A model generated the notes under the pieces. That model made no database searches. It worked only from the letters and a program-made list of their open reading frames with translations, and had not been told where the DNA came from. The position numbers were made by a program, and so were the translations under genes. A DNA stretch of 64,000 bases from Candidatus Marinacidobacterales bacterium (GTDB taxonomy: Bacteria > Acidobacteriota > Vicinamibacteria > Marinacidobacterales > SMYC01): NCBI GenBank assembly GCA_965237955.1, contig OZ250169.1:2048001-2112000 (forward strand), read 5' to 3'. This document shows positions 1,052 through 18,501 of this stretch, piece by piece (position 1 is the first letter of the stretch; each line of letters begins with the position of its first letter).

Positions 1052-1085
1052 CGTCGTGTCCAAAAACACAAACGAACTCAAGACC
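1052..1085 (+). repeat. Transposon-end family B, copy 1
   Basis: cgtcgtgtccaaaaacacaaacgaactcaagac; also at 5402, 10435, 14384 (rc) and 25098. Confidence 0.9.
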
Positions 1086-1116
1086 CGCCTGGGCTGCAAC
1101 AAGCAGGTGCAGATGG

Positions 1117-1674
1117 CTAAACAGCCTGGAGGGAATAAGTGGCCAGCCCGATGGCCGCCACATGGTCGTTGCCCCCAACGACCTCGAGCCGGCAGGTGGC
1201 GAGCGTGCGTCCCTTGCGGACGACCTCTCCGACGGCGAGCAGGTCTTCCTGGACTCCCGCCAGCAAGCTCATCTTGAACTCCACCGTCTTGACCGTGGAG
1301 CCCGGCGAGACCGAACCCACCGCGAAGTTACCCGCCGTGTCCGCCAGCAGACCGATGAGACCCCCGTGGATGACGCCATGCCTTTCTTCGAACTCGGCCC
1401 GAAACGGCAACCGCACGCGCGCCACGCCGTTCTCGCAATAGCTGAGTGTCATGCCCAGGTAGCGGCTGATCGGAGCCGCCTCGAAGAGTTGTTTGAGTTT
1501 TTCGAGATGCGCGGAACGTTCCGTCGTTTCACCCACCCGCTGGTGGCGGACACCTTCGGGCAGAGGAACCGGCACCGGCTTGGGTTCATTGCGGGGAGCC
1601 GAAGGAGGCCGTGCAGCGGCTTTCTTGCTAGCAGGCCTCGAAAGGATGTCTCTCTTCCTTGGTCCTTCTTTCAT
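1117..1674 (-). CDS. PaaI-family (hotdog fold) thioesterase, copy 1
   Basis: HGVIHGGLIGLLADTAG and TVEFKMSLL...GEVVRKGRTLATC motifs. The true start may be downstream of 1674. Confidence 0.85.
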   Translation of the reverse strand: MKEGPRKRDILSRPASKKAAARPPSAPRNEPKPVPVPLPEGVRHQRVGETTERSAHLEKLKQLFEAAPISRYLGMTLSYCENGVARVRLPFRAEFEERHGVIHGGLIGLLADTAGNFAVGSVSPGSTVKTVEFKMSLLAGVQEDLLAVGEVVRKGRTLATCRLEVVGGNDHVAAIGLATYSLQAV

Positions 1675-1819
1675 ATCGAGACACGCTCCACGATGTTGCG
1701 AGTGACGTGCTGTCTACGCCGGTCATAGATCTGTGTGGCCCGAGGGGTTGGAGTGTCCGGCCAGATACTGCACGTCCTCCAGGGGCACGTCCTGGCTGAG
1801 TATATCCGTGATCTCCATC

Positions 1820-1845
1820 ACGCGGATGAATAAATAGAAGGCACA
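1820..1845 (-). repeat. Transposon-end family D, copy 1
   Basis: cgcggatgaataaatagaaggcaca; also ends at 4792, 5679, 6996 and 10800. Confidence 0.9.
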
Positions 1846-1871
1846 ACCTGGGAAAGTATAATTGAGGTGGC

Positions 1872-1976
1872 ATGGAGAAGCTCACGCTGGCCCTGGCGTA
1901 CATGTTCGCCGTCGCCCTACCCGCAGCGGCGTCGGTTCAGCAACAGGAACGAGAGGACGATCCCGAGGCGCGCTCC
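1872..1976 (+). pseudogene. 5' fragment of a secreted protein, cut by an A end
   Basis: RBS gaggtg plus MEKLTLALAYMFAVALPAAASVQQQ (signal-peptide-like), ending exactly at the A1 terminus. Confidence 0.55.
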
Positions 1977-2086
1977 CGTTCTGTGCCAAAACTCGGCCTT
2001 TTTGAAATAGACCATCAATCAGCAGCTTAGTGTTTGTGTTTGCGACCGGGCCAAGGGCCGTGGGCTTTACAATCGTATGGCTCGAG
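1977..2086 (+). repeat. Transposon-end family A, copy 1
   Basis: cgttctgtgccaaaactcggcctttttgaaatagacc... matches 16396-16505. Confidence 0.9.
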
Positions 2087-2334
2087 TCACCCGCTGATCA
2101 TGGAGCGTGTTTCTGTTCAGGTGTTGATCCCGGATCGCAAGCAGCGCGGCACCGAGAAAGACACCTACGACCATGACTCTGCCCAAAGGGGGGCGCGCCC
2201 AGAGGTAGGTCAAGAACAACCCTCCCAACAAACAGGCGAGCGAGAACGACTTCCGCTCGACCCGGTAGCCCATTGCTTTGGCAATGACGGCGTCGTCGCG
2301 TAAGGCGGCATCATCGCGACCAGCCGCGCTGCTG

Positions 2335-2821
2335 ATTCTGGGCCTCTCGGGTGGCTTCTTTTCCGACGCCGCACGGCCGGTCAGCAGCCCACTCCCCCCT
2401 TTGGCGCAAACGTGGCACTCGAAAATCGGGATTAGAGACGAATCCCGAAAATGAGGCCCGTTCCGCCCTTCTAGCGCGTCTCTGGTGCCACCTACCCCTG
2501 CAAAACCCCGCCAACCGCGCGGAAAACCTCACCCGTCTCTGCAGGACCGCAATTGGCCGGACTGGGTGGCGGATGGTGCAGGTTGGAGCTATCCGGTCTC
2601 GGCAAAAGGCGGTCCAGCTTTTAGCGGAAATCCTCAAATAGAAAAGTAAGTGGAGATTCAGGAGGTTTCGAGTTTCGCGCATTTCTTGACTTTTTTGACG
2701 CGTACGAACAGGTTTTGCGAGAAGGCTGTTTTACGCCCTCTCGGGTTTCAACCATGATGCCAATTTCGTTACATCCTCTTCCCCTACAGTGATTTAACGG
2801 CCTCCGTCACGTGCTGGTCCC
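2335..2821 (+). repeat. Internal/distal part of family B (apparently non-coding)
   Basis: Strong similarity to 27543-27966, with a diverged middle section. Both share the end motif cacgtgctggtcccc. Confidence 0.8.
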
Positions 2822-2985
2822 CGTCCTGTGCCAAAACTCGGCCCTCTTGAAATAGCCGATAAATCAGCAGCTTAGCGTCTGTGTTTTGCGATGGTGCCAA
2901 GGGCCGTGGCCTTTACAATCGTCTGGCCCGAGGGTGTTATCTTCGGATCCATCATGACGTACCATGTGCAATTCCTACTGTTGGT
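2822..2985 (+). repeat. Family A, copy 2, including the first codons of the rve gene ([11 protein letters not shown])
   Basis: Matches 16396-16560. Confidence 0.9.
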
Positions 2986-16135: not shown

Positions 16136-16251
16136 GTCCACCACAGAAGCTCACCGTGGATACTCGTCGATGGTTCTCGACCGCGTTCGCATTCTGCTGG
16201 GGCTGTGCCGCCGTGCCAACGGCGCAGCCTCTGCTGGAAGAAAACGAAGCC

Positions 16252-16345
16252 CGTCGTGTCCGAAAACGCGAACGGAGCCGAAATCTCGAGTCCTAGAGGC
16301 GTTTTCGAAATTCGCGGAGACCAGCCGACGCGGCTGTGATCCGCA
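16252..16345 (+). repeat. Family C, copy 3
   Basis: cgtcgtgtccgaaaacgcgaacggagccgaaatctcg... Confidence 0.85.
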
Positions 16346-16435
16346 AAAAAAGAAGATCGCGTATGGACGGGCAGACAGCTATGAGAGCGACATCCCGTCC
16401 TGTGCCAAAACTCGGCCCTTTTGAAATAGGCCATA

Positions 16436-16448
16436 AATCAGCAACTTA
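16436..16448 (+). promoter_or_regulatory. IHF-consensus site in the A end
   Basis: AATCAGCAACTTA fits WATCARN4TTR and is retained in most A copies. Confidence 0.5.
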
Positions 16449-16523
16449 GTGTCTGTGTTTGCGCCGGGGCCAAGGGCCGTAGGCTTTACAATCGTCTGGC
16501 CCGAGGGTGTTATCTTCAGGTCC

Positions 16524-17615
16524 ATGATGACGTACCACGTGCAATTCCTACTGCTCGTTCTAGCTGGCTGGGTCAACCGCCAGCAGCAGGATGTGATCGA
16601 CTACCTGCAAGAGGAGAACCGTGTGCTCCGAGCCGGGCTTCGGGGCAAGCGTCTCAGTCTCTCGGACGACGAGCGGCGCAGGCTCGCGGTCAAGGCCCAG
16701 GCTTTGGGCCGCGAGGCGCTGGCCCAGATTGCGTCCGTTGCCACACCCGCTACGCTTCTGCGCTGGTACCGCCACCTCATCGCAGCCAACTACGATGGCA
16801 GCAAGAACCGGAGTCCAGGCCGACCTCCGACGGCGAAGGACATCCGTGAGCTCATTGTGCGCGTGGCGCGGGAGAACCCGACGTGGGGATATACGCGCCT
16901 GCGAGGCGCACTCAAGAACCTAGGACATGAACTCGGACGCAACACTATCAAGAGGATCCTCGCCGAGCACGGTATCGCTCCTGCGCCGGAGCGGGGCAGG
17001 AGCATGTCGTGGAGCACCTTCATCAAGGCTCATTGGGGTGCCATCGCTGCGACAGACCTGTTCACCGTCGAGGTTGTGAACCCGTTCGGGCTCGTCCGCT
17101 ACCATGTCCTGTTTGTCATCGATATCGCCACTCGCTGCGTGTGCATCGGTGGGATAACGTCGGACCCCAACGGGGAGTGGATGAAGCAGGTTGCAAGAAA
17201 CCTCACTGACATGTGGGATGGTTTCCTCCTTGGCAAGCGATACCTCATCCACGACCGGGACCCGCTATTCACCGAGGCGGTACGTGGGCTGTTGAGAGAT
17301 TCAGGCGTGAAGCCCCTTCGCCTTCCCGCTAATAGTCCGAATCTGAACGCATATGCGGAAAGATTCGTTCTCTCCATACGTCGAGAGTGTCTCGACCGCT
17401 TCGTACCTCTCAGTGAGCGACACCTGCGCACAGCGGTAACCGAATACGTAGTGCACTATCACACAGAACGGAACCACCACTCGGCAACGAGCTCTGATGG
17501 AGGTCTCGGCAACGAGCTCCTCACACCTCTGCCGGCAAGCGCGAATGACGCTGGCCCCATCGTGTCGCGAGAGCGACTTGTGGGCATTCTCAACTACTAC
17601 TGCCGTGCCGCGTAG
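16524..17615 (+). CDS. Integrase-core (rve) DDE transposase with N-terminal HTH, 363 aa
   Basis: [15 protein letters not shown]; triad in [14 protein letters not shown] and [15 protein letters not shown]. Confidence 0.92.
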
Positions 17616-17844
17616 ATGGTCGCCGGCGACGGTAGCCCCTCGGCGGGCTCGACCGGCGTAGCGTGGAAACCGCTTCAGGAACACGCTTCGATATTCGCTC
17701 TCGACTAGGTGGTCATCTGCATGGTGACGACCCGCCCGCCCAAGACGATTGTAAAGCCCACGGCCCTTGGCCCGGTCGCAAACACAGGCACTAAGTTGCT
17801 GATTTATGGCCTATTTCAAAAGGGCCGAGTTTTGGCACAGGACG

Positions 17845-18284
17845 CCATTCGGGATTGGGCTGACAGCTTTGGTTGGGGCACTCGACCGTTACAGATCGAG
17901 AACGCGCTTATCGCCTTCGAGGTGACTCTGTTTAACAACGCTGTCCGCATTTCAGTAATCCAGCGAGAACGACTCAAAGGATTCTTGTCGATTGGAATAA
18001 ATATAGTCCTATCTGACGATCAGCAAGAGCAGTTTTACGACTTGGAACAGGACGTTGCGGATCTACTTGTAAGAACGCTTCGGATTGAAATGTCACGCAT
18101 GGGAATGGACTTTTCAAACATCGACGTGCCGTTAACTCGTGTCTCACTAGAAAAGAAGTTGCCCATCACTGGCTCTCTGGCACAGCATGAGTTTCTGTCT
18201 ACTGTCGCGCAAGTTAATCGTGCGCGTATTCTATATAGCGAGACCATCGGGCTGACGCTTAACCAAGGCAATATCACTCAGTGA
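17845..18284 (+). CDS. Hypothetical protein, lower GC, 5'-truncated by A11
   Basis: 145 open codons starting exactly at the A terminus. Confidence 0.55.
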
Positions 18285-18431
18285 GCTTGCTGTATTCGAT
18301 GTGCCCGGTGTTTACGAGCCCCGCAGCCGATTTGAGCCAGCCGTGTGCACCCCCGGTGAGCCTGTCACTTGACACCTGCAGCCCAGGGGCCGTAAGCCAG
18401 CCCTGCGGCGCGAAATACCCTCGCTTCTGCC

Positions 18432-18501
18432 CGGATTCCAAGGGCGTCTAAGCTGCTGATTTGTGGTCTATTTCAAAAGGGCCGAGTTTTGGCACAGGAC
18501 G
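18432..18501 (-). repeat. Family A, copy 12 (A' subtype)
   Basis: Matches 14439-14508. Confidence 0.9.

What the first reader, a model, noticed from the sequence alone, without database searches (positions are those of the whole stretch)
1052..18501. Gene-cassette-like array built from single ends of rve-integrase elements (candidate DDE-driven gene-capture platform)
Seen: 24 end copies in 17.5 kb, plus one at 25098, and none by eye after 28 kb. Family A x12 (termini 1977, 2822, 3138, 4850, 7695, 7942, 10848, 13123, 14508, 16396, 17844, 18501); B x5 (1052, 5402, 10435, 14384, 25098); C x3 (5451, 6816, 16252); D x5 (1845, 4792, 5679, 6996, 10800). Each copy has one precise terminus and one ragged inner end (26-680 bp retained). 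Nine of 12 A copies and all D copies point the same way. No target duplications were found. Unrelated genes or gene pieces lie between the ends (thioesterase, ICMT, nuclease plus xth, glycosyltransferase, fxsA, DUF3179). A is the upstream end of the full-length DDE gene at 16524, and D lies upstream of a second rve N-terminus. Inference: repeated one-ended transposition or adjacent deletion with re-targeting to existing ends stacks foreign segments into an integron-like array without IntI or attC. The mundane alternative is an IS graveyard.
Basis: partly seen in the sequence, partly recalled or inferred. Interest (0 to 1): 0.8.

Follow-up and report, generated by a model that had tools for sequence, protein, structure and literature searches.

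The report
Transposon ends stitch shared gene mosaics
In this marine acidobacterium about a thousand ends of an unclassified insertion-sequence family cluster in islands covering a fifth of the chromosome, where they border gene pieces that are shared between genera, and their junctions suggest that the transposase likely joins one end at a time instead of making ordinary two-ended insertions.

Summary
The ends are real and the window is a small sample: 834 A-D termini lie in the 8.13-Mb genome, 811 in 28 islands (1.53 Mb), and other genera carry up to 478 A ends. They are not all single. 16396-17844 is a full IS with 102-bp inverted repeats, B and C are the two ends of a sister IS, and 244 termini close recurrent two-ended units, including hybrid MITEs. 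The transposases are DD35E enzymes below the IS481 and IS3 cut-offs. There are no TSDs, and 0 of 65 inward pairs have co-linear flanks. The target read from empty sites is polar (A: ACCC^NGT) while 6 of 7 control IS fit a symmetric target, and each end of an A-D hybrid keeps its own flank preference. Best reading: single-end strand transfer finished by host repair, giving deletion and duplication mosaics. Against an integron-like platform: no co-orientation (52%), no excess targeting of existing ends, and an ordinary IS5-type element also clusters without TSDs. End-plus-cargo modules recur at 98-99% in other genera. The scan noted this family before on other DNA (e1-779708).

The parts
898..1051 (+). 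End of an ordinary IS5-type element (IS5a), cut off by the B terminus at 1052
1052..1845 (.). B...D two-ended unit carrying a thioesterase (1117-1575, minus strand); second copy at genome 7960466-7961421; the thioesterase also occurs at 94-96% aa in loci of relatives
1977..2086 (+). A end, 110 bp retained
2334..2821 (-). Non-coding piece of the recombinase module with its attP-like site, cut by the A terminus at 2822
2822..3138 (.). 317-bp A-A miniature element (16 copies genome-wide; 15 and 16 distinct flanks)
3139..4073 (+). Right part of an ordinary IS3-family element, cut by the A terminus at 3138
4074..4792 (-). Second, truncated copy of the thioesterase-D unit (99.3%); its D terminus sits inside an A end
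4793..4850 (-). A end (54-type); its terminus cuts the 3' end of the ICMT/PEMT-like ORF (4822-5292)
5402..5484 (+). Stacked B end (5402) and C end (5451)
5529..5679 (-). D end with the first codons of the D-type transposase
5793..6479 (+). Cargo ORF of unknown family; 92% copy elsewhere in the islands
6597..6816 (-). Right 220 bp of the B/C element, ending in a C terminus
6945..6997 (-). Degenerate D end
7607..7942 (-). Two stacked A ends (termini 7695 and 7942)
7943..10434 (+). Cargo module between A and B termini: NucS-like nuclease (8061-9296, weak hit) and xth. 99.9% copy at genome 8089848-8092692; 98-99% copies in G013, G015 (2) and G018 (2)
10435..10800 (.). 366-bp B-D hybrid miniature element
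10802..10848 (-). A end, 47 bp retained; the D terminus at 10800 abuts it
10849..12530 (+). Glycosyltransferase-like cargo, 5'-truncated by about 30 codons at the A terminus (alignment to the core paralogue starts at its residue 38)
12720..13123 (-). Left 404 bp of the A element
13181..13591 (+). 3' piece and end of another family member (K type)
13696..14205 (+). fxsA cargo; 89% aa copy in another island, 82% core paralogue
14259..14508 (-). B end (14384) abutting a 54-type A end (14508)
14516..16135 (+). DUF3179 cargo; relatives carry 77-86% homologues with no family terminus found in their loci
16252..16395 (+). Stacked C end (16252) and F2 end (16335)
16396..17844 (+). Full two-ended A element: 102-bp terminal inverted repeats, DD35E transposase 16524-17615 (D178/D244/E279; this copy has a 7-aa insertion), no TSD
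17845..18284 (+). DUF2299-like fragment
18318..18501 (-). 54-type A end (the end of the recombinase module)
18713..24599 (-). Type I restriction-modification operon (hsdM, hsdS, hsdR in two ORFs) lying between the A terminus 18501 and the B terminus 25098
25098..28831 (+). B end of a recombinase module, interrupted by an IS21 element (25141-27328) and continuing 27329-28831

Best explanation
The region is part of a mosaic island made of ends, fragments and a few full copies of a family of unclassified DD35E insertion sequences whose transposases likely join one end at a time to a short polar target, with host replication and repair likely finishing each event. Shown: each terminus is precise; no unit has a target duplication or co-linear flanks; A and B/C targets are polar (ACCC^NGT, ANCS^NCW); and the two ends of hybrid units keep separate flank preferences. 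Inferred: a single 3'-OH attack on nearby DNA gives an adjacent deletion, inversion or duplication. A gain of cargo would need two independent junctions, or one junction plus homologous or illegitimate joining, which would explain ragged inner breaks, hybrid miniature elements and occasional swaps of one end type for another at the same junction. Such events would be tolerated only in dispensable DNA, so the ends would stay in islands that were probably seeded in part by a large serine recombinase module integrating at tRNA-Ser. End-plus-cargo modules then spread between genera by a route not identified here.
For: 0 of 65 adjacent inward pairs with both flanks mapped are co-linear; 0 of 27 in relatives; 0 of 43 and 0 of 8 at protein level. 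Controls: IS21a 17 of 20, IS256 5 of 7, ISL3b 7 of 8, IS3a 5 of 8. Symmetry test over stagger -9 to 12: A best chi2/df 10.05 (207 targets), B/C 3.67 (82), against 0.31-1.11 for six controls; A subsamples of 70 give 3.4-4.0, and the 115 youngest A junctions are as polar as the rest. The logo repeats on 65 A junctions from other genomes. In A-D hybrids 16 of 32 A-side and 1 of 29 D-side flanks fit the A motif, Fisher p=4e-5, although the two transposases are only 30% identical. Head-to-head junctions are rare (11, spacers 3-38 bp), unlike copy-out circles. CGT termini with inverted CC/GG flanks and no TSD longer than 2-3 bp recur in relatives from several phyla. The nuclease-xth module keeps one A junction with different inner end types in G000, G015 and G018, and its other boundary moves (2445, 2470, 2492).
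Against: No strand-transfer product was observed; all is read from finished junctions. IS5a (0 of 15) and IS5b (0 of 34) also lack co-linear flanks, and IS5b clusters too (variance/mean 11.6), so loss of TSDs and clustering alone do not need one-ended chemistry. D is only marginally polar (chi2/df 2.05, close to IS5b's 1.86), and sister ends E, F and F2 fit symmetric targets (p 0.06-0.15). Copies that share one flank are not clearly more common than for control IS (168 of 811 against 50 of 320, p=0.054). 143 of 227 long truncated ends have inner breaks with no listed terminus, which the model leaves to host repair. Only 3 clean end swaps at low-copy junctions were found in this genome. Empty targets come from multicopy DNA, mostly other mobile elements, which could bias the logos.
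Confidence: 0.55

Rival explanations
1. IS graveyard made by ordinary two-ended replicative transposition: as with IS903-type elements, repeated adjacent deletions and inversions erase target duplications and leave solo ends in dispensable islands.
For: IS5a and IS5b in the same genome lack co-linear flanks and IS5b clusters. PMC11708052 (passages) names adjacent deletion and IS-IS recombination as frequent causes of missing TSDs. Ordinary IS form 86 of 358 cargo-duplication boundaries. There is no co-orientation or cargo polarity.
Against: Two-ended attack should give a symmetric target, as it does for IS5a (9-bp stagger, chi2/df 0.59), and leave some split TSD partners (14 of 211 IS5a ends). 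A and B/C show neither. Hybrid ends keep their own flank preferences.
Confidence: 0.25
2. Two-ended insertion by an asymmetric complex that cuts two separate target sites and replaces the DNA between them, so no duplication forms and both flanks read ACCC outward.
For: Full elements show ACCC on one side and GGGT on the other. F ends fit a blunt symmetric target. In a Bradyrhizobium plasmid a relative abuts a cytochrome c peroxidase CDS with no continuation annotated on the other side (one case).
Against: Gaps between mapped flanks are scattered from 101 to 2816 bp, 44 of 277 non-adjacent pairs in multicopy DNA, with no mode. 40 hybrid copies would need mixed complexes of transposases 30-53% identical.
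Confidence: 0.1
3. A host-domesticated, integron-like platform: ends act as cassette recombination sites, and single-end circles are inserted at existing ends to build ordered, expressed arrays.
For: Modules recur across islands and genera. End swaps occur at fixed junctions. 7 of 179 low-copy duplications have an included end at one side and an abutting end at the other. Defence genes are common in a sample of cargo (13 of 50 RM, CRISPR or BREX).
Against: No co-orientation (52%), no excess of attacks inside family DNA, no orientation bias of genes, no sigma-70 site in the one A-cargo junction scanned, and genes are often cut by termini.
Confidence: 0.07
4. Assembly artefact: repeats were used to join unrelated sequence from a metagenome.
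For: The genome is a single-contig assembly with 6.2% contamination; no contig laid spans the whole stretch.
Against: The same junctions occur in separate assemblies: 7874-10800 is contiguous at 98.9% in G015, and 66 of 414 foreign end flanks match a junction here. Nine other genomes hold 29-478 A ends.
Confidence: 0.03

Closest known systems
IS26/IS6 family: translocatable units and the targeted conservative reaction (PMC7885326 and PMC7986276, passages read)
   Same: DDE enzyme, arrays of ends and cargo without TSDs, and a proposed single-end transfer finished by host Holliday-junction processing.
   Different: Unrelated ~360-aa DD35E enzyme. Ends are not co-oriented, targets are degenerate 7-bp motifs rather than a like end with long identity, and no TSD route was found at all.
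IS481 and IS3 families (IS911 single-end, RecG-processed targeted insertion; cited in PMC7986276, originals not read)
   Same: Closest profiles (NF033577, NF033516), DD35E spacing, single ORF as in IS481, TGT within or at the termini.
   Different: Scores are far below the cut-offs (80-95 bits against 224 and 160). A, B and C start CGT with TGT five bases inside. There are no TSDs (IS481: 2-15 bp per PMC10045372 passages) and few abutted-end junctions.
IS903-group IS5 elements causing adjacent deletions (PMC11708052, passages; IS5a and IS5b in this genome, group label recalled)
   Same: TSDs lost, neighbours nibbled, clustering possible.
   Different: Their targets stay symmetric about a 9-bp stagger; A and B/C targets are polar.
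MITE-bounded composite elements such as TIME-COMP (PMC4133298, passages)
   Same: Non-autonomous miniature ends bordering captured DNA; solo ends.
   Different: TIME-RES made a 5-bp duplication and TIMEs use like ends. Here only 2 of 179 cargo duplications are two-ended units, and hybrid ends are common.
Integrons and ISCR/IS91 one-ended capture (recalled)
   Same: Cassette-like cargo stacked between repeated sites.
   Different: No polarity; the enzymes are DDE, not tyrosine recombinase or HUH; cargo lies mostly outside the termini and is often cut.

Membership tests
IS481 | Transposase passes the curated IS481 profile | tested here: not met
   NF033577: 95, 92, 86 and 80 bits for the A, B/C, F and D enzymes against a cut-off of 224
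IS481 | Single-ORF DDE transposase with DD35E spacing | tested here: met
   D178, D244, E279 invariant in 23 sequences; fold search returns integrase, IstA and TnsB cores from a low-confidence model, pLDDT 60
IS481 | TGT...ACA termini (recalled; shown for IS481EU in PMC10045372) | tested here: inconclusive
   D, E and F end in TGT; A, B and C end in CGT with TGT five bases inside
IS481 | Target site duplication of 2-15 bp | tested here: not met
IS481 | Placement among ISfinder members | not testable with these tools
   ISfinder is not held
IS3 | Curated profile and orfA/orfB frameshift organisation | tested here: not met
   NF033516 75-84 bits against 160; single ORF in 18 of 22 full A copies
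IS3 | Copy-out circles with abutted ends, 3-4 bp TSD | tested here: not met
   11 head-to-head junctions with scattered spacers; no TSD; free circles not testable
IS6/IS26 | Directly repeated IS flanking cargo | tested here: not met
   52% same orientation
IS6/IS26 | Targeted single-end reaction at a like end | tested here: inconclusive
   3 end swaps in this genome and one across genomes; homologous recombination in the shared ~54 bp also fits
Integron/CALIN | Co-oriented cassettes, each ending in a recombination site | tested here: not met
Integron/CALIN | attC sites or IntI in the region | not tested
   no attC search was run; no Pfam integrase hit among 36 window ORFs
ISCR/IS91 | HUH transposase | tested here: not met
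   the enzymes are rve-type DDE

The most novel reading that the evidence does not exclude
A widespread, uncatalogued IS family has no ordinary two-ended insertion route: each end is an independent joining site for its own transposase, and in marine acidobacteria these ends, with a tRNA-Ser-integrating serine recombinase module, form a megabase-scale gene-shuffling commons through which defence and metabolic modules move between genera.
Probability: 0.25. Interest if true: 0.88.

Novelty: new variant of a known kind. Interest (0 to 1): 0.62.

Why it matters
A DDE transposase whose main output is single-end junctions at a polar target would extend the IS26 and IS911 special cases to a whole family with thousands of relatives, and it makes the claim testable with one enzyme and one end. 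It would explain how a fifth of several marine acidobacterial chromosomes became a shared patchwork of defence and metabolic genes, and why TSD-based annotation misses the family. If the graveyard reading holds, it remains an unusually large, well-resolved case of IS-driven island remodelling.

Tried and rejected
A 2-bp CG duplication in a palindromic ACCC-CG-GGGT target: rejected by empty-site logos. Serine- or tyrosine-recombinase core homology: rejected, B, C and D targets do not match their own termini. Survival bias on flanks: young junctions are as polar. Re-targeting to ends, co-orientation, cargo polarity and an excess of one-flank copies: not found. Capture from the own core genome is minor: 21 of 526 low-copy island genes have a 90% or better core-zone match, against 135 in island zones. 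No type IV coupling protein PF02534 in the genome, so the carrier is unknown. Laying contigs on an isolated E element showed no empty-site joint among the joints listed. In one search the contigs at the A junctions 10848 and 14508 reach fewer than 31 bases into the end, so they do not count as bridging. A Streptomyces plasmid relative showed no array in 41 kb. One search timed out and was redone, whose 'unexplained' class (404) is inflated by alignment drop-off and was not used. IS630 failed the symmetry test only because its centre lay outside the range; it fits. No solved structure matched by sequence. Seven literature searches found no description of this family; subscription journals and ISfinder are not covered.
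Full report
Observation. 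Self-BLAST and the genome scan find all 25 listed termini; D 6996 is degenerate. The window lies at 2,048,001-2,112,000 of a single 8.13-Mb contig. The genome holds 834 A-D termini (A 488, B 173, C 53, D 120), 811 of them in 28 islands spanning 1.53 Mb, and 1,002 with sister ends E, F, F2 and H. Clustering per 100 kb has variance/mean 27, against 1.7-2.8 for six ordinary IS and 11.6 for IS5b. The A target motif is about as common outside islands as inside. The A 22-mer occurs in 10 of 60 other genomes searched, nine with 29-478 copies, again in clusters. Named records with the same element are Ca. Marinacidobacterales.

What the ends are. A is both ends of a 1,428-bp IS with 102-bp inverted repeats: 22 full copies, 18 with an open frame of 363 aa or more. 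Window 16396-17844 is one of them. B and C bound a ~1,350-bp sister (6 full copies, about 53% aa). D heads a third member (30% aa). All are rve enzymes with invariant D178/D244/E279, below the IS481 and IS3 cut-offs; 7,931 of 7,998 scored candidates were relatives. 244 of 834 termini close recurrent two-ended units. Among unit families with three or more copies, 86 copies have cognate ends and 40 have hybrid ends. 363 of 387 A ends of 54 bp or more carry an IHF-like site (consensus recalled). A 3.5-kb module bounded by a 54-type A end and a B end encodes a small protein (DUF2924 by recall; no NCBIfam hit) and a large serine recombinase; 20 pieces over 2.5 kb exist.

Junction chemistry. No full copy has a TSD. 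Using multicopy DNA as empty targets, 0 of 65 adjacent inward pairs are co-linear, 0 of 27 in relatives, and 0 of 43 and 0 of 8 at protein level. Controls: IS21a 17 of 20, IS256 5 of 7, ISL3b 7 of 8, IS3a 5 of 8, IS630 3 of 8, but IS5a 0 of 15 and IS5b 0 of 34. So missing TSDs alone do not decide. The target logos do more: A ACCC^NGT, B/C ANCS^NCW, D GSB^NCT. A two-ended attack should give a logo symmetric about some stagger. Six of seven controls fit (chi2/df 0.31-1.11), IS5b nearly (1.86, p=0.003). A (10.05, n=207) and B/C (3.67, n=82) fit no stagger from -9 to 12; D is marginal (2.05) and E, F and F2 are compatible with symmetry. Young junctions are as polar as old ones, and 65 A junctions from other genomes repeat the logo. 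In A-D hybrids the A side matches the A motif in 16 of 32 flanks and the D side in 1 of 29 (p=4e-5). CGT termini with inverted CC/GG flanks recur in relatives from several phyla. I infer single-end strand transfer for A and B/C. Of 227 truncated ends of 120 bp or more, 48 are abutted by a family terminus, 36 by another listed IS and 143 by neither; 45 of the 73 with a reference (duplicates not removed) have 0-1 nt of microhomology. The genome encodes Ku, so end-joining is a possible finisher (inference).

Cargo. The nuclease-xth module (7943-10434) recurs at 99.9% in another island and at 98-99% in G013, G015 (twice) and G018 (twice); its two halves occur separately at 96-97% in another family. 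The A junction is kept while the inner end type differs between G000, G015 and G018, and the far boundary shifts by 22-47 bp. 66 of 414 distinct foreign end flanks share a junction with this genome, and 42-60% of seven 20-kb foreign island windows are at least 93% identical to it. DUF3179 homologues at 77-86% sit in relatives with no family terminus in their loci. Of 526 low-copy island genes, 135 have a 90% or better match in island zones and 21 in core zones. In 50 of the 526, taken from seven 20-kb regions, 35 had a Pfam hit and 13 were RM, CRISPR or BREX genes. Of 358 boundaries of 179 low-copy duplications, 33 are included ends, 62 abutting ends, 17 inside ends, 86 other IS, 159 unexplained and 1 mixed; only 2 of 179 are two-ended units.

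Island seeding. The recombinase module carries an attP-like site: 33 intact, two attL-like halves (one at tRNA-Ser(TGA), 126,923, where the largest island cluster begins) and one attR-like half at 2,014,224, the left edge of this window's island. I infer recombinase-mediated integration followed by an inversion; this was not tested. No conjugative coupling protein was found.

Against an integron-like platform. Unpaired neighbours share a strand in 283 of 542 cases. Termini abut family DNA in 150 of 811 cases, its share of the islands. Genes point away from and toward termini about equally (A: 126 against 134). One-flank copies are not clearly in excess (p=0.054). Three clean end swaps occur in this genome.

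Comparison. I read passages only of PMC7885326 and PMC7986276 (IS26 single-end targeted reaction, IS911), PMC11708052 (missing TSDs, adjacent deletions), PMC10045372 (IS481 TSD lengths) and PMC4133298 (TIMEs); no supplements were opened. Seven searches found no account of this family; ISfinder could not be checked.

Verdict. Real, larger than reported and reproducible across genera. It works like IS26 or IS911 single-end transfer but is a member of neither family. It is best called a mosaic made by likely one-ended junctions (0.55), not an ordered cassette platform (0.07); the ordinary graveyard reading keeps 0.25. Interest 0.62.

Noticed in passing
window 33887-34973: IS5-type element with 80 full copies spread over the genome; its targets fit a symmetric 9-bp stagger, yet only 14 of 211 ends have a TSD partner, which suggests heavy replicative scrambling of the chromosome.
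   Followed up: partly
L150:837-960 (genome 126,836-126,960) and genome 2,014,224: attL-like and attR-like halves of the serine recombinase site lie 1.9 Mb apart on opposite strands, at the edges of two islands.
   Followed up: partly
attP-like core, e.g. genome 1,117,022 and 2,873,680: A ends of several types abut the same base in the attP-like core in 7 places, a hot spot that matches ACCC^NGT.
   Followed up: partly
window 1-960: Repeat-containing surface-protein ORF (Calx-beta-like by recall), with paralogous copies near genome 888-890 kb.
   Followed up: no
window 25500-25730: 117-bp tandem duplication inside the IS21 istA of this copy.
   Followed up: no
window 1744-1821, minus strand: Frameshifted fragment resembling a tyrosine-recombinase C-terminus (motif recalled) inside the B-D thioesterase unit.
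   Followed up: partly
L131:109-7262 and L127:8560-13626: A CRISPR-Cas operon (cas1, cas7, csd1, cas5, cas3) and a double-GTPase conflict operon lie inside islands.
   Followed up: no
genome 136,621-160,875 and 495,924-520,191: 24.5-kb segmental duplication at 94.7% between islands.
   Followed up: no
window 28970-31366: VPS10/BNR-repeat gene with several paralogues, cut at its boundary with the recombinase module piece.
   Followed up: no
genome-wide: IS110-type and IS5b elements are also island-enriched (100 of 123 and 104 of 127 end hits).
   Followed up: no
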